Of a stretch of 64,000 nucleotides of DNA, positions 15,005 to 36,330 are shown one piece after another. This DNA is from Candidatus Omnitrophota bacterium (GTDB lineage: Bacteria; Omnitrophota; Gorgyraeia; Zapsychrales; Fredricksoniimonadaceae). The stretch spans positions 74,117-138,116 of the forward strand of contig JACQCF010000004.1 of the NCBI GenBank assembly GCA_016201795.1. Reading direction: 5' to 3'. The position numbers and the translations under genes are program-made. The notes under the pieces are model-generated. The model saw only the letters and a program-made list of their open reading frames with translations. It did no database searches and had not been told where the DNA came from. Each line of letters opens with the position of its first letter. Positions within the stretch are counted from its first letter, which is position 1.

Positions 15005-15080
15005 GGCGGCGTAGCTCAGTTGATAGAGCATTCGGTTCATACCCGACAGGTCAGTGGTTTAAGTCCACTCGCCGCCACCA
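15005..15080 (+). tRNA. tRNA with anticodon CAT (elongator Met or, more likely, tRNA-Ile2 / lysidine-CAU type)
   Basis: 76-nt cloverleaf. Acceptor GGCGGCG/CGCCGCC. D-arm GCTC-AGTTGATA-GAGC. Anticodon arm TTCGG-TTCATAC-CCGAC (anticodon CAT, C29 so not initiator). T-arm AGTGG-TTTAAGT-CCACT. Encoded 3' CCA. The variable/T-loop region (AGGTC…GGTTTAAGTCC) resembles E. coli ileX more than metT. Confidence 0.8.
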
Positions 15081-26658: not shown

Positions 26659-26687
26659 TTGACAACTATTCTCATTTCTTGTATAAT
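26659..26687 (+). promoter_or_regulatory. Perfect-consensus sigma70 promoter TTGACA-17-TATAAT upstream of the IMPDH-family/guaA/dnaE block
   Basis: TTGACA at 26659-26664; TATAAT at 26682-26687; exact 17-nt spacer. Confidence 0.7.
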
Positions 26688-26765
26688 TTCGCTTCAAAAA
26701 AATTTTATACGTTTTTTGCTGATCGTTTTCATATTCTATCCTATTGAAAATACGGAGGTTATGAA

Positions 26766-27935
26766 ATGGCTGAGTGGATTGGTATTGGCCGCAGGGCACG
26801 CAGATGTTATGGATTTGATGAAGTGGCTTTAGTACCGGGTGATGTGACGGTTAACCCCAATGAAATCGATACCAGTTTTGTCCTAGGTAAACATAAATTT
26901 GAAGTTCCTATTTTAGCCGCAGCCATGGATGGAGTGGTGGATGTAAAATTTGCCATAACCATGGGTCAATTAGGCGGCATGGCCGTTTTAAATCTCGAGG
27001 GTCTGCAAACCCGTTATGAACATCCCGATGAAGTTTTGGATCAAATTGCCAAAGCCTCCCCTGAAGAAGCCACCAAATTCGTTCAAAGCATTTATGACAA
27101 TAAAAAATATCCAGTCAAAAATCAACTGATTACCAAACGCATTGAAGAAATCAAAAAAGCCAAAGTGCCAGCGATCGTCAGCTGTATTCCTCAAAATGCC
27201 GAAAATTTTTATAAAGTAGCCCTGGATGCCGGGGTGGATATTTTTATCGTTCAATCGACGGTTGCCACTGTTCGTCATATTGCCAGTGAATATAAAATTT
27301 TGGATGTAGAAAAATTTTGTACCGGTGCCAAAATTCCGATCATTGTCGGTAATGTGGTCACCTATGAGATGGCCCTTGATCTTATGGAAGTCGGTGCTTC
27401 GGCCATTTTAGTTGGTATCGGTCCTGGTGCGGCTTGTACCTCCCGCGGGGTTTTAGGCATTGGTGTTCCGCAAATTACCGCCACCGTCGACTGCGCGGCA
27501 GCACGCGATTATTATTTTAAACGACGGGGTCAATATATCCCCATTATTACCGATGGGGGTATGCGCATCGGTGGAGAGATTTGTAAAGCCTTTGCCGCCG
27601 GGGCGGATGCGGTGATGGTTGGTTCCGCTTTTGCCAAAGCTCAAGAAGCGCCCGGACGGGGATTTCACTGGGGCATGGCGACTTCCCACGCCAATTTGCC
27701 TCGCGGCACAAGAATACACGTTGGCATCAGCGGTACGCTTAAAGAAATTTTATTGGGACCGGCTAAGGTGGATGACGGCTCTCAAAATTTAGTGGGTGCT
27801 TTAAAGACCTCCATGGGATCTTTGGGAGCGCGTAATATCAGTGAAATGCACGACGTGGAAATGATTTTAGCTCCTTCCATTCAGACGGAGGGGAAAGTAT
27901 TTCAGATTGGACAAAGAGTAGGGATGGGAAAATAG
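26766..27935 (+). CDS. IMP dehydrogenase family protein lacking the CBS subdomain (GuaB-like, 389 aa)
   Basis: N-terminal …[10 protein letters not shown]…[12 protein letters not shown]…LGGMAVLN. Catalytic-loop motif [24 protein letters not shown] (IMPDH GIGPGSICTTR Cys loop). No CBS pair between the halves. The position upstream of guaA fits a guaB role, but a GMP reductase or GuaB3-like function cannot be excluded. Confidence 0.75.
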
Positions 27936-27945
27936 GAGATTCTTC

Positions 27946-29748
27946 ATGGCTAAAAAAGCCGCTAAAAAAATTCTTAAAAAAATTTCTAGGAAAATGGTTA
28001 AAAGGACGCTTAAAAAGAGAGTTAAAAGATCAGTTAGAAAATTAGTCAGAAAATCCGTCAAAAAACCAATTAGAAGAGTTATTAAGAAGATTGTTAAATC
28101 GAGAGTTCGAAAACCTGTTAGAAGAAAAAAATCGGTGCACGGGCTGATGAAGCCTATCAAGCTTCGCTGCTCTTCCAAAATTATCCCCATGGAGGTTAAA
28201 AAACAAAGAAGCCGTGACGTTATTCTTATTTTGGATTTGGGTTCTCAATACACTCAATTGATTGCCCGCCGTATCCGCGAAAGCAAGGTTTTTAGCCAGA
28301 TCGTTCCTTACAATATTTCCGCTAATGAAATTAAAGATTTTCACCCCAAAGGGATTATTCTTTCCGGTGGGCCGCAGAGCGTTTACGACAAAAAATCTCC
28401 TCTGCCGCTCGCGGAAATTTTTAAATTAGGTATCCCGATTCTGGGAATTTGCTACGGTATGCAGGCGATTACCCATATGTTAGGAGGTAAAGTCGCCAAA
28501 GCCAAAGGTCGTGAATACGGCAAGGCTGAGCTTTTTATTGACAGCAATAAAGACCTTTTTGTCAATCTATCCACGAATTTAACCTGCTGGATGAGTCATG
28601 GCGATGAAATTGCTACACCGCCGCCGGGCTTTGTTCGTATTGCGCATACCCTTAATGCCGCCAACGCGGCCATTGTCAACCGTAACCGTAAAATCTGGGG
28701 TGTCCAGTTTCATCCCGAGGTGGTGCATACCCAGAGAGGCTTGCAAATTTTACAGAATTTTGCTTACACTATTTGCGGATGCCTGCCACGCTGGACCATG
28801 GACCGTTTTATCGACGCGACGGTTAAGCAAATCAAAGAAACCGTAGGCCATAAAAAGGTGGTATTAGGTTTAAGCGGTGGAGTGGACTCCTCGGTGGCCG
28901 CCCTGCTTATTCATAAAGCCATTGGCAATAAACTTTACTGTATTTTTGTCGACAACGGTCTTTTGCGTCACAATGAAGCTTCTGCCGTTCAGCGGACGTT
29001 TAAAGGTAATTTTAAAATGAATCTGACGGTGGTGGATGCCCCCCGGCGTTTTCTGGAACGCCTCAAAGGTGTGGAAGACCCCGAACAAAAGCGTAAAATC
29101 ATCGGTGATGAATTTGTGCGGGTTTTTCAAGATGCAGCCAAACGCATCAAAGCCGTTGAATTTTTAGGTCAAGGGACTTTGTATCCGGATGTGATTGAAT
29201 CCGTTGCCGCCCACGGCGGTCCGACAGCTGTTATCAAAAGTCACCATAATGTCGGGGGGCTTCCCAAAGACATGAAATTTAAACTGGTGGAGCCTTTGCG
29301 TGAACTTTTTAAAGATGAGGTGCGATTAATCGGCAAGAATTTGATGATGCCGGACTCCATTCTAAAACGACAGCCGTTTCCGGGGCCGGGACTGGCTATT
29401 CGCGTCATTGGGGAAGTAACCAAGGAGCGTTTGGATATTTTGCGAGAGGCGGATGAGAGAGTACTCGATGAAATCAAAAAGGCCGGACTTTATCATGATT
29501 TATGGCAGTCGTTTGCGGTATTGCTTCCCATTAAAACTGTCGGAGTTATGGGCGATAGCCGTACTTATGAAAATGTTATTGCTATACGCTGTGTGAACAG
29601 TCTCGACGGTATGACCGCGGACTGGGCCCAGCTACCGCATGATCTTTTAGGAAAAATTTCTAACCGTATCATCAATGAGGTCAAAGGCGTCAATCGCGTG
29701 GTGTACGATATTTCCTCCAAGCCCCCAGCTACCATTGAGTGGGAATAG
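27946..29748 (+). CDS. guaA: GMP synthase (glutamine-hydrolysing) GuaA with an ~85-aa periodic polybasic N-terminal extension
   Basis: From ~residue 90: [21 protein letters not shown] (GATase), Cys in GICYGMQ, PP-loop [13 protein letters not shown]-terminal dimerisation domain ending …PATIEWE. Residues 1-85 are a K/R-rich 8-aa periodic repeat. A strong RBS (AGGAG) precedes the first ATG at 27946. Confidence 0.9.
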
Positions 29749-35970: not shown

Positions 35971-36046
35971 GACCCACTAGCTCACCCGGTAGAGCACTAC
36001 ACTTTTAATGTAGGGGTACCGCGTTCGAGTCGCGGGTGGGTCACCA
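35971..36046 (+). tRNA. tRNA-Lys (anticodon TTT)
   Basis: Acceptor GACCCAC/GTGGGTC. Anticodon arm CTACA-CTTTTAA-TGTAG. T-arm CCGCG-TTCGAGT-CGCGG. Encoded CCA. It starts 2 nt after the frr stop. Confidence 0.85.
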
Positions 36047-36129
36047 GGTTTCGTTCAAAAATTTTCATGTGTTGAACTTCGCCTGGCAGAGCCCGGCGAA
36101 GCCAAAGGCGAAAGCACTTTGGCGAAGAC

Positions 36130-36214
36130 GGGCGGATGGCGGAATTGGTAGACGCGCATGCCTTAGGAGCATGTGGGGTAACCCGTAGAGGTTCAAGTCC
36201 TCTTCCGCCCACCA
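36130..36214 (+). tRNA. tRNA-Leu (anticodon TAG), class II with long variable arm
   Basis: Acceptor GGGCGGA/TCCGCCC. Anticodon arm CATGC-CTTAGGA-GCATG. Variable arm TGGGGTAACCCGT. T-arm AGAGG-TTCAAGT-CCTCT. Encoded CCA. Confidence 0.8.
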
Positions 36215-36254
36215 AATTTTTGTAAAACAAAAATTTGGTTTCTGAGCGAACTAC

Positions 36255-36330
36255 GCGGCGGTAATTCAGTTGGTAGAATGCCACCTTGCCAAGGTGGATG
36301 CCATGGGTTCGAATCCCATCCGCCGCTCCA
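36255..36330 (+). tRNA. tRNA-Gly (anticodon GCC)
   Basis: Acceptor GCGGCGG/CCGCCGC with discriminator U. Anticodon arm CCACC-TTGCCAA-GGTGG. T-arm ATGGG-TTCGAAT-CCCAT. Encoded CCA. Confidence 0.85.

What the first reader, a model, noticed from the sequence alone, without database searches (positions are those of the whole stretch)
27946..28200. GMP synthase carries an ~85-residue periodic polybasic N-terminal extension encoded by cryptic 24-nt tandem repeats
- The first ATG with a strong AGGAG RBS opens directly into [62 protein letters not shown]….
- That stretch has an 8-residue periodicity ([VIL]-[KR]-[KR]-x-[VIL]-[KR]-K-x), the form of an amphipathic basic helix, and is nearly free of acidic residues.
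- The canonical GuaA glutamine amidotransferase domain begins only at ~residue 90.
- Histone-H1-like or ribosomal-protein-like basic tails on a purine biosynthesis enzyme are not standard. The tail could mediate nucleic-acid, ribosome or membrane association, or be a recently expanded repeat.
- The antisense ORF at 27867-28190 is an artefact of this repeat.
Basis: seen in the sequence. Interest (0 to 1): 0.55.

Follow-up and report, generated by a model that had tools for sequence, protein, structure and literature searches.

The report
Polybasic disordered tail on GMP synthase
In one large branch of the uncultivated phylum Omnitrophota, the housekeeping enzyme GMP synthase carries a conserved, very positively charged, floppy N-terminal extension that no other sampled GMP synthase has; it probably sticks the enzyme to RNA or DNA, but that has not been tested.

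Summary
ORF 27946-29748 encodes a canonical GuaA, with model residues 1-512 mapping to residues 93-600. A 92-residue extension precedes it: 41 K/R and 2 D/E in the first 91 residues.

- **Period:** 4 residues / 12 nt (x-φ-K/R-K/R), not 8 residues / 24 nt.
- **Structure:** predicted disordered, not an amphipathic α-helix.
- **Translated and selected:** there is an SD 7 nt upstream. 118 of the 120 closest homologues keep an in-frame basic tail of 34-107 aa before the DxGSQ motif; the other two are short start calls. All indels are multiples of 3. The internal Met is not conserved.
- **Distribution:** tailed GuaAs form one monophyletic Omnitrophota clade. Sister Omnitrophota, other phyla and about 100 diverse GuaA representatives lack a basic tail. 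Among the 59 ORFs of the window, only GuaA has one.
- **Two modules:** a hypervariable polycationic repeat (residues 1-64; 29% identity between near relatives) and a 27-residue basic linker conserved like the enzyme core (84% vs 87%; 249 synonymous vs 103 non-synonymous codon differences).

NCBI's annotation of this genome omits the tail. The function, electrostatic tethering to nucleic acid or another polyanion, is inferred only. I found no literature on it. I class it as a new variant of a known enzyme, of moderate interest.

The parts
26659..26687 (+). σ70-type promoter-like site (TTGACA-17-TATAAT, 12 of 12) upstream of guaB3; likely promoter of a guaB3-guaA operon
   Evidence: This is a consensus match only.
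26766..27935 (+). guaB3-family IMP-dehydrogenase-related gene (389 aa, no CBS/Bateman insert), directly upstream of guaA
   Evidence: TIGR01304 scores 429 bits against a cut-off of 342. Pfam IMPDH also matches. The synteny groEL-guaB3-guaA-dnaE is conserved in tailed and tail-less Omnitrophota.
27934..27938 (+). Shine-Dalgarno AGGAG, overlapping the guaB3 stop codon, 7 nt before the guaA start
   Evidence: SD-like sequences lie at the same place in relatives L081, L082, L001 and L002 and L108.
27946..29748 (+). guaA, glutamine-hydrolysing GMP synthase with N-terminal extension (600 aa plus stop)
27946..28137 (+). Module 1 (residues 1-64): hypervariable polycationic tetrad repeat x-[VIL]-[KR]-[KR]; net charge about +34; predicted disordered
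   Evidence: - Composition and period.
- pLDDT 35-56.
- 29% identity and lengths of 15-69 aa among 31 near relatives whose cores are 87% identical.
- 11 of 12 Arg codons are AGA/AGG, against 19 of 27 CGT/CGC in the core.
28029..28065 (+). The only stretch that Tandem Repeats Finder scores as a DNA tandem repeat (12-nt unit, 3.1 copies, 80% matches)
   Evidence: family D1
28138..28218 (+). Module 2 (residues 65-91): conserved basic linker [27 protein letters not shown], ending in the clade-wide pattern φ80-x-φ82-x-φ84-x-K86-x-R88-x-K90-D91
   Evidence: - 84% identity among near relatives, against 87% for the core.
- Alignable with almost no gaps across 114 sequences; K/R at position 90 is 100% and D/E at position 91 is 100%.
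- 249 synonymous against 103 non-synonymous codon differences.
28189..28191 (+). Internal Met82, the start used in NCBI's 519-aa annotation of this same gene (P0001); not a conserved start
   Evidence: - P0001 is 100% identical and 519 aa long.
- Position 82 is M in 37, I in 36 and V in 22 of 114 sequences.
- There is no SD upstream.
28222..28767 (+). Class-I glutamine amidotransferase domain (residues 93-274) with invariant C169, H256 and E258
28807..29745 (+). ATP pyrophosphatase (PP-loop S310-G-G-V-D-S315) and C-terminal dimerisation domain (residues 288-600)
   Evidence: TIGR00884 covers 288-600 and PF00958 covers 508-599. Invariant columns are listed.
27867..28190 (-). Antisense 107-aa ORF; a compositional by-product, not a gene
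   Evidence: Long antisense open frames (105-133 codons) are present over all six tails examined, although their sequences differ. This is as expected opposite a purine-rich, T-poor sense strand.

Best explanation
**Shown**
- guaA of this Omnitrophota MAG is translated from ATG 27946. It yields a catalytically intact GMP synthase preceded by a 92-residue, lineage-specific appended region.
- The region arose once in the ancestor of a large Omnitrophota clade that includes Ca. Zapsychrus. It was inserted between guaB3 and the guaA core, which overlap by ATGA in three of the five sister-clade loci.
- It has two modules. A 27-residue basic linker is held by purifying selection at the sequence level. 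N-terminal to it lies a polycationic low-complexity segment of tetrads (x-φ-K/R-K/R).
- The polycationic segment is held only at the level of composition and reading frame. It grows, shrinks and turns over rapidly, by in-frame indels and Lys(AAA/AAG)↔Arg(AGA/AGG) changes.
- The window carries one of the longest and most regular versions.

**Inferred**
- The disordered polycation (about +34 over 64 residues, no acidic residues) acts as a non-specific electrostatic tether to cellular polyanions, most probably RNA, ribosomes or nucleoid DNA.
- In these very small cells this would place GMP synthesis on, or concentrate it with, nucleic acid. As the first part to leave the ribosome, the tail might also keep the nascent enzyme soluble.
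- The conserved linker would be the specific structural or docking element that joins the tether to the amidotransferase domain.
- Catalysis itself is expected to be that of ordinary GuaA.
For: **Real start and translation**
- SD and ATG are in place.
- 118 of the 120 closest homologues keep an in-frame basic tail; 27 of the 119 tails measured begin MAKK.
- Indels are only multiples of 3.
- The linker shows 249 synonymous against 103 non-synonymous codon differences.
- The internal Met is not conserved.

**Canonical enzyme**
- NF000848 scores 812.8 bits against a cut-off of 400, mapping to residues 93-600.
- The catalytic triad and PP-loop are invariant.
- The synteny is orthologous.

**Single origin and clade restriction**
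- The NJ tree shows one tailed clade.
- Tail-less Omnitrophota and other phyla were seen.
- Of the best 150 cluster representatives, none of the 103 in which the DxGSQ motif was located has a basic N-terminal extension.

**Gene-specific**
- GuaA is the only one of the window's 59 ORFs with more than +10 net charge per 30 aa.

**Two modules**
-.

**Disorder**
- Block-mean pLDDT is 35-56 over residues 1-90.

**Composition**
- Pooled over 119 tails: K 30%, R 9%, A 8%, V 8%, S 7%, P 6%, D+E 1.6%; median net charge +22.
- This resembles H1-type nucleic-acid-binding tails. Small free-standing ORFs with the same MAKKAVKK... tetrads exist in metagenomes.

**No acidic compensation in the core**
- Core net charge is about +12, so an intramolecular electrostatic latch is unlikely.

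**Precedent**
- The lysine-rich, disordered N-terminal appended domain of eukaryotic LysRS binds tRNA (PMC6213541, found).
Against: - No binding, localisation or expression data exist. The function is inferred from charge and disorder alone.
- The polybasic module can be almost absent: P0119/L109 has a 35-aa extension that is essentially the linker only, and P0030 has 15 aa before the linker. Its length is therefore not strongly constrained, and part of it may be neutral.
- The tail has no detectable homology to any DNA- or RNA-binding family or solved structure.
- AlphaFold2 does not dock the conserved linker onto the enzyme, so its role is unknown.
- Gene-specificity was tested on only 64 kb of this genome.
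Confidence: 0.5

Rival explanations
1. Only the roughly 30-residue linker is functional. The polybasic repeat is a largely neutral, slippage-prone low-complexity expansion that is tolerated because it is disordered and harmless.
For: - The polybasic module is only 29% identical between genomes whose cores are 87% identical, and its length ranges from 15 to 69 aa.
- It is nearly absent in P0119/L109.
- The 12-nt periodicity, and Arg codons one step from Lys codons, point to mutation-driven turnover.
Against: - The frame is kept open and the charge kept strongly positive (D+E median 1.6%, net charge +9 to +51) in all 119 tails across deep divergence.
- A-rich sequence would acquire stops quickly if it were unconstrained.
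- No lineage has replaced the tail with neutral or acidic sequence.
- It is specific to one gene in the window.
Confidence: 0.2
2. The tail is a cationic amphipathic segment that anchors GuaA to anionic membrane lipids.
For: - A hydrophobic residue recurs at every fourth position beside K/R pairs.
- AlphaFold2 draws a weak helix at residues 3-20.
Against: - The hydrophobic moment is low at 100° (0.40) and peaks at exactly 90°, so no straight amphipathic face would persist.
- The hydrophobic positions are mostly Val, or Ala/Thr/Ser/Pro in homologues. F, W and L are rare.
- pLDDT is below 50.
- Nothing else about a soluble purine enzyme points to the membrane.
Confidence: 0.1
3. The extension regulates the enzyme itself. 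It could do so by controlling oligomerisation, filament or condensate formation with RNA or polyphosphate, or by coupling to GuaB3.
For: - The linker is conserved as strongly as the core, which implies a specific contact.
- guaB3 is always adjacent.
- Polycationic IDRs commonly drive complex coacervation (general knowledge).
Against: - The core carries no compensating acidic charge.
- GuaB3 adjacency is the same in tail-less sister lineages.
- AlphaFold2 finds no docked conformation in the monomer.
Confidence: 0.12
4. The basic region is not part of the protein. Translation starts at internal Met82, as in NCBI's annotation, and the upstream frame is open by chance or acts at the RNA level, for example as an A-rich leader or a poly-Lys translational brake.
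For: - NCBI annotates this very gene as 519 aa (P0001) and a relative as 523 aa (P0103).
- The region is A-rich, with A6-A7 runs.
Against: - There is no SD before Met82, and Met82 is not conserved.
- The upstream frame is open with a conserved MAKK start and SD in relatives.
- Upstream of P0103 there is likewise an in-frame basic ORF with its own SD.
- Indels are in frame and the linker shows an excess of synonymous changes.
- Relatives use AAG as often as AAA, so A-runs are not what is conserved.
Confidence: 0.03

Closest known systems
Canonical bacterial GuaA (e.g. E. coli 1GPM, PDB 7SBC)
   Same: Residues 93-600 match the equivalog model end to end. The catalytic triad, PP-loop and dimerisation domain are all present, and the gene sits in an orthologous context.
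   Different: All solved GuaA structures, and all of the roughly 100 diverse representatives in which the core start could be located, begin a few residues before β1 or carry a non-basic extension. None has a polybasic extension.
Lysine-rich N-terminal appended domains of eukaryotic aminoacyl-tRNA synthetases (e.g. the LysRS RNA-interaction domain, PMC6213541)
   Same: An N-terminal, intrinsically disordered, Lys-rich segment appended to an otherwise complete, ancient catalytic core in one lineage only. That domain supplies non-specific RNA affinity.
   Different: - It occurs in eukaryotes on RNA-handling enzymes.
- Here the host enzyme has no nucleic-acid substrate.
- No sequence homology was found.
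- RNA binding has not been tested here.
Histone H1 C-terminal domain and bacterial H1-like lysine-repeat tails (Chlamydia Hc1/Hc2, Pseudomonas AlgP, actinobacterial HupB/HupS and TopA lysine repeats; from general knowledge)
   Same: Short K-rich oligopeptide repeats, near absence of acidic residues, disorder and rapid length variation.
   Different: - Those tails sit on DNA-binding proteins, whereas this one sits on a purine-biosynthesis enzyme.
- Composition here is richer in Val/Ile and poorer in Ala/Pro.
- There is no Pfam or PDB similarity.
Other metabolic enzymes with MAKKAVKK-type N-tails found here (enolase in L101; hydantoinase-B-like protein in L097)
   Same: The same kind of tetrad-repeat polybasic N-terminus precedes a complete enzyme domain.
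   Different: - They come from unrelated, higher-GC organisms.
- The tails are much shorter (38 and 16 residues before the domain).
- There is no evidence of clade-wide conservation, and they are not described in the literature I could search.

Membership tests
Glutamine-hydrolysing GMP synthase (GuaA; NCBIfam NF000848 / TIGR00888 + TIGR00884) | Full-length match to the equivalog model above the curated cut-off | tested here: met
   812.8 bits against a cut-off of 400; model positions 1-512 map to residues 93-600.
Glutamine-hydrolysing GMP synthase (GuaA; NCBIfam NF000848 / TIGR00888 + TIGR00884) | Class-I amidotransferase catalytic triad Cys-His-Glu | tested here: met
   C169 (GICYG), H256 and E258 are invariant in 114 aligned sequences.
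Glutamine-hydrolysing GMP synthase (GuaA; NCBIfam NF000848 / TIGR00888 + TIGR00884) | PP-loop SGGxDS of the ATP pyrophosphatase domain and the C-terminal dimerisation domain | tested here: met
   S310-G311-G312-V313-D314-S315 are conserved. PF00958 covers 508-599 with E = 4.9e-47.
Glutamine-hydrolysing GMP synthase (GuaA; NCBIfam NF000848 / TIGR00888 + TIGR00884) | Enzymatic conversion of XMP to GMP | not testable with these tools
   Needs an enzyme assay or complementation of a guaA mutant.
Histone H1 / bacterial H1-like nucleoid proteins (Hc1, AlgP-type) | Detectable sequence homology to a curated family | tested here: not met
   - The tail gives no Pfam family at E ≤ 0.01.
- Only sub-threshold noise appears at E ≤ 10.
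- There is no PDB match.
- The word-based search found nothing.
Histone H1 / bacterial H1-like nucleoid proteins (Hc1, AlgP-type) | Lys-rich, acid-free, disordered oligopeptide repeats | tested here: met
   33 K/R and 0 D/E in residues 1-62; 4-residue period; pLDDT 35-56.
Histone H1 / bacterial H1-like nucleoid proteins (Hc1, AlgP-type) | DNA binding and compaction | not testable with these tools
   Needs EMSA or in vivo localisation.
SPKK-type minor-groove-binding tetrapeptide repeats | Repeated [ST]-P-[KR]-[KR] | tested here: not met
   The tetrads are x-[VIL]-[KR]-[KR]. Pro occurs only twice (KKPIRR, RKPVRR) and never after S/T.
Membrane-targeting amphipathic α-helix | Hydrophobic periodicity near 3.6 residues (100°) and helical propensity | tested here: not met
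   The hydrophobic moment is 0.40 at 100° against 2.09 at 90°. AlphaFold2 gives coil apart from a weak helix at 3-20, all at low pLDDT.
   TRF finds only a 12-nt unit × 3.1 copies at 28029-28065. Self-identity is 0.59 at shift 12 and 0.54 at shift 24.
Appended lysine-rich RNA-interaction domains (eukaryotic aaRS type) | N-terminal, disordered, Lys-rich, lineage-restricted addition to a complete catalytic core | tested here: met
   This is an architectural analogy only; no homology is claimed.
Appended lysine-rich RNA-interaction domains (eukaryotic aaRS type) | Measured RNA binding that depends on the appended domain | not testable with these tools
   Needs binding assays with and without residues 1-64 and 1-91.

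The most novel reading that the evidence does not exclude
In this clade of ultra-small Omnitrophota, GMP synthase has been turned into a nucleoid- or ribosome-bound enzyme, or even a moonlighting H1-like nucleic-acid-coating protein. A tunable polycationic tether and a conserved docking linker would do this, spatially coupling guanine-nucleotide supply to transcription and translation. This would be a bacterial counterpart of the appended RNA-binding domains of eukaryotic synthetases, on a metabolic enzyme.
Probability: 0.25. Interest if true: 0.65.

Novelty: new variant of a known kind. Interest (0 to 1): 0.42.

Why it matters
- **A natural experiment on disordered tails.** This is a clean, phylogenetically well-bounded case. 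A core metabolic enzyme acquired a polycationic disordered tail once and kept it through more than 100 diverged lineages. That makes it a natural experiment on what such tails do in bacteria: localisation on nucleic acid, RNA-assisted folding, or condensates.
- **Two kinds of constraint in one extension.** A sequence-conserved linker sits beside a composition-conserved repeat. The functional and the tolerated parts can therefore be separated by simple deletion constructs.
- **An annotation problem.** NCBI's pipeline starts this gene (and at least one relative) at an internal Met, and so hides the feature. Similar lineage-specific basic extensions on enzymes, such as the enolase found here, may be systematically under-annotated in MAGs.

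Tried and rejected
- **Tail-only database search.** Searching the 5.8-billion-protein database with the tail alone (residues 1-62) returned nothing, probably because of low complexity. It cost one capped search.
- **Pfam and PDB with the 92-residue extension.** At E ≤ 10 only noise came back (annexin, Ty5 Gag, DUFs), so there is no homology lead.
- **Literature.** Searches on Omnitrophota + lysine-rich, GMP synthase + N-terminal extension, Omnitrophota + GMP synthase, bacterial lysine-rich IDRs on metabolic enzymes, and term searches in two Omnitrophota genomics papers found no description of this tail.
- **Proteome-wide basic tails.** Rejected for the 64-kb window. It could not be tested genome-wide.
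- **Link to the CBS-less GuaB3 upstream.** Rejected, because tail-less sister lineages have the same guaB3-guaA arrangement.
- **Electrostatic autoinhibition by an acidic core.** Rejected, because the cores are net positive in tailed and tail-less Omnitrophota alike.
- **Antisense ORF 27867-28190 as a gene.** Rejected as a compositional artefact.
- **RNA elements.** Rfam and tRNA scans of the window show none in or near the tail.
- **Docking of the linker.** The AlphaFold2 monomer did not resolve any docking. A dimer or GuaB3 co-fold could not be run.
Full report
**What is at the coordinates**

The window comes from a Candidatus Omnitrophota MAG. An identical protein is in NCBI as 'MAG: glutamine-hydrolyzing GMP synthase [Candidatus Omnitrophica bacterium]'.

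ORF 27946-29748 (+) encodes 600 residues. Its ATG lies 7 nt downstream of AGGAG (27934-27938), which overlaps the stop codon of the preceding gene.

Pfam places the class-I amidotransferase domain at residues 94-274 and GMP_synt_C at 508-599. The NCBIfam GuaA equivalog model (512 positions) maps end to end onto residues 93-600 with 812.8 bits against a cut-off of 400. Every solved bacterial GuaA aligns from query residue 85-93 onward. There is therefore a genuine 92-residue extension in front of a complete GuaA.

**The observation, checked**

- Residues 1-62 contain 21 Lys, 12 Arg and no Asp or Glu. Residues 1-90 contain 41 K/R and one Glu; the next acidic residue is D91.
- Among the 59 non-overlapping ORFs of the window, GuaA is the only one whose net charge in any 30-residue stretch exceeds +10. 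It reaches +17.
- The periodicity is real. Lag-4 autocorrelation of basic residues is 0.68, reached by none of 20,000 shuffles.
- The period is four residues (x-[VIL]-[KR]-[KR], about 15 tetrads), not eight. Lag 8 is only the harmonic.
- DNA self-identity is 0.59 at shift 12 against 0.54 at shift 24.
- Tandem Repeats Finder reports only 3.1 copies of a 12-nt unit at 28029-28065 and no 24-nt array. The repeat finder finds only short imperfect matches.
- The 'amphipathic helix' reading fails. The hydrophobic moment peaks at exactly 90° (2.09) and is 0.40 at the α-helical 100°.
- AlphaFold2, given a 114-sequence alignment, models the core confidently. It leaves residues 1-90 at block-mean pLDDT 35-56, with only a weak helix at 3-20.

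The polybasic periodic extension is real. The 24-nt tandem repeat and the helix are not.

**Is it translated?**

- *Frame conservation.* Of the 120 best database homologues (68-100% identical), 118 carry an N-terminal basic extension of 34-107 residues before the DxGSQ motif. Of the 119 tails measured, 27 begin MAKK.
- *The two exceptions.* Both are NCBI start calls. One is this very gene, called at internal Met82 (P0001, 519 aa). The other is P0103, whose DNA also has an upstream in-frame basic ORF with its own SD.
- *Internal Met.* Position 82 is Met in only 37 of 114 sequences, Ile in 36 and Val in 22. It has no SD.
- *Start context.* SD-like sequences precede the MAKK start in relatives.
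- *Indels.* In a DNA alignment of seven tails, every gap is a multiple of three: 3, 6, 9, 15, 24, 39, 42, 99.
- *Codon changes.* In the 27-codon linker, differing codon pairs are synonymous 249 times and non-synonymous 103 times.

**Distribution**

- In the species-representative genome collection, only the three closest loci (L001-L003) have the tail.
- Ten other Omnitrophota GuaA genes (58-68% identical) and all loci from other phyla lack a basic extension; most begin a few residues before DFGSQY.
- A neighbour-joining tree of the cores places all tailed sequences in one clade, sister to tail-less Omnitrophota L004-L008.
- An exhaustive HMMER search of 1.84 billion cluster representatives returned 150 diverse GuaAs. 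In the 103 where I could locate the core start, only five have 25 or more residues before it, and none of those is basic.
- The gene order groEL-guaB3-guaA-dnaE is the same with and without the tail. In three of the five sister loci (L004, L005, L008) guaB3 and guaA overlap by ATGA, so the tail is extra DNA inserted between them.
- The clade includes Ca. Zapsychrus exili (P0047). Seymour et al. place Zapsychrales in class Velamenicoccia (PMC10066038).

**Anatomy: two modules**

Among 31 near relatives whose cores are 87% identical to the window's:

- The segment [27 protein letters not shown] (residues 65-91) is 84% identical.
- Everything N-terminal to it is only 29% identical and varies from 15 to 69 residues.

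Across all 114 aligned sequences, the last ~22 residues before β1 align almost without gaps. They follow the pattern φ80-x-φ82-x-φ84-x-K86-x-R88-x-K90-D91. Positions 88, 90 and 91 are 99-100% conserved in class. This alternation looks strand-like, although AlphaFold2 does not dock it.

The polybasic module can shrink almost to nothing: P0119/L109 has 35 residues in total, and P0030 has 15 before the linker.

Pooled over 119 tails, length is 25-102 residues (median 61). K+R is 20-56% (median 37.5%) and D+E has a median of 1.6%. Net charge is +9 to +51, with a median of +22.

In the window, 11 of 12 tail Arg codons are AGA/AGG, one transition from Lys AAA/AAG. The core uses CGT/CGC for 19 of 27. 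Relatives mix AAG and AAA freely, so the protein's charge is conserved, not A-runs in the mRNA.

**Mechanism**

*Shown:*
- A catalytically intact, orthologous GuaA. The triad C169/H256/E258 and the PP-loop 310-315 are invariant.
- A lineage-specific, translated, disordered polycationic N-terminus.
- A sequence-constrained linker.

*Inferred:* a chain of about +34 charge with no acidic residues must be associated with polyanions in a cell. The composition (K, then R/A/V/S/P/T) and the disorder resemble H1-type and synthetase-appended nucleic-acid-binding tails rather than membrane anchors.

I therefore favour electrostatic tethering of GuaA to RNA, ribosomes or nucleoid DNA, at a confidence of about 0.5. 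A role in keeping the nascent enzyme soluble is possible. The linker would be the specific joint or docking element.

The core is itself net positive in tailed and tail-less Omnitrophota alike (about +12 and +15), against about 0 in other phyla. That argues against an intramolecular electrostatic latch.

*Rivals:*
- A mostly neutral repeat expansion on a functional linker (0.2).
- Regulation of assembly, condensation or GuaB3 coupling (0.12).
- Binding to anionic lipids (0.1).
- Non-translation or an RNA-level role (0.03).

**Comparison with what is known**

- *By membership,* the protein is GuaA; all sequence-testable features are met. The tail belongs to no curated family. It is not an SPKK repeat, not an α-helical amphipath and not a 24-nt tandem repeat.
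- *By analogy,* it works most like the lysine-rich, disordered, lineage-restricted N-terminal RNA-interaction domains appended to eukaryotic aminoacyl-tRNA synthetases (PMC6213541). It also resembles the lysine-repeat tails of bacterial H1-like proteins and actinobacterial HU and TopA (general knowledge).
- *Elsewhere.* A metagenome scan for genes beginning MAKKAVKK[AV]VKK gave 24 loci:
  - one more GuaA of this clade;
  - many small H1-like ORFs;
  - an enolase with a 38-residue polybasic N-tail (L101);
  - a hydantoinase-B-like protein with 16 residues before its Pfam domain, of which the first ~15 are the basic MAKKAVKK-type stretch (L097).
  
  Such tails on metabolic enzymes therefore occur sporadically elsewhere.
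- *Literature.* I found no description of the GuaA tail.

**Verdict**

This is a real, conserved, clade-specific, two-module basic extension of GMP synthase, unannotated in this genome's public record. It is a new variant of a known enzyme, with an inferred but untested nucleic-acid-tethering role.

It is moderately interesting (0.42). It is not an artefact, and it is more than a recent repeat expansion. Low-complexity basic extensions are a known kind of thing, however, and no mechanism has been demonstrated.

Noticed in passing
window 28189 (Met82); locus L108 1340-1503: NCBI's pipeline starts this guaA at the internal Met (P0001, 519 aa) and a relative's guaA at a comparable internal Met (P0103, 523 aa). 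In both cases an upstream in-frame basic ORF with an SD exists. Lineage-specific basic N-terminal extensions may be systematically clipped in MAG annotations.
   Followed up: partly
window 26659-27935: The gene directly upstream of guaA is a GuaB3-family, CBS-less IMPDH-related protein (TIGR01304, 429 bits). A perfect TTGACA-17-TATAAT promoter-like site precedes it. The order groEL-guaB3-guaA-dnaE is conserved across Omnitrophota, which suggests that GuaB3 may serve as the working IMP dehydrogenase there. Whether a canonical guaB exists elsewhere in the genome was not checked.
   Followed up: partly
L101 3407-3766 (+): A metagenomic enolase (GC 0.59) carries a 38-residue polybasic N-terminal extension (MAKKAVKKVVKKVTKKIARKAAPVKAVAKAPAAASPLK) before Pfam Enolase_N. 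This is another metabolic enzyme with an H1-like tail.
   Followed up: partly
L097 7527-9287 (-): A hydantoinase-B/oxoprolinase-family protein (587 aa) begins with MAKKAVKKAVKKARK, with 16 residues before the Pfam domain starts at residue 17.
   Followed up: partly
L085, L086, L088, L090, L098, L099, L104 (high GC); L103; L094/L095; L100; L102: These are small free-standing ORFs (19-120 aa) made almost entirely of AVKK / PVVK-type repeats, often with a Pro-rich C-terminus. They are candidate H1-like nucleoid proteins with no Pfam match.
   Followed up: no
L084, L087, L106, L107 (GC 0.32-0.34): This is a family of ~96-aa proteins. Each has a MAKKAVKKVVKK N-terminus, an acidic segment, a Gly/Ala/Trp-rich hydrophobic stretch and a Cys-rich C-terminus. 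One member (L084) was scanned and has no Pfam match; the identity of the family is unknown.
   Followed up: no
GuaA cores of Omnitrophota loci L004-L008, L016, L020, L032, L039, L064 and the tailed clade: Even without the tail, Omnitrophota GuaA cores are net positive (means +12 to +19), against about 0 for other phyla sampled. This hints at a generally basic proteome or a lineage-specific surface change.
   Followed up: no
window 27946-28137 vs 28222-29745: Arg codon usage switches sharply within one gene: AGA/AGG for 11 of 12 in the tail, against CGT/CGC for 19 of 27 in the core. This is consistent with tail Arg residues arising from Lys codons.
   Followed up: yes
P0127 (1653 aa), P0136 (653 aa), P0148 (675 aa): Some GuaA cluster representatives are much longer than usual. 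P0127 has the GuaA ATP-pyrophosphatase part at residues 1354-1653 of a 1653-aa protein. P0136 and P0148 have 130-150-residue non-basic N-terminal extensions. These may be fusions or mis-assemblies and were not examined.
   Followed up: no
window 35971-36330 and 15005-15080: A tRNA cluster of Lys(ttt), Leu(tag) and Gly(gcc) lies at 35971-36330, and a tRNA-Met lies at 15005-15080. No other Rfam family reaches its gathering score in the window.
   Followed up: yes
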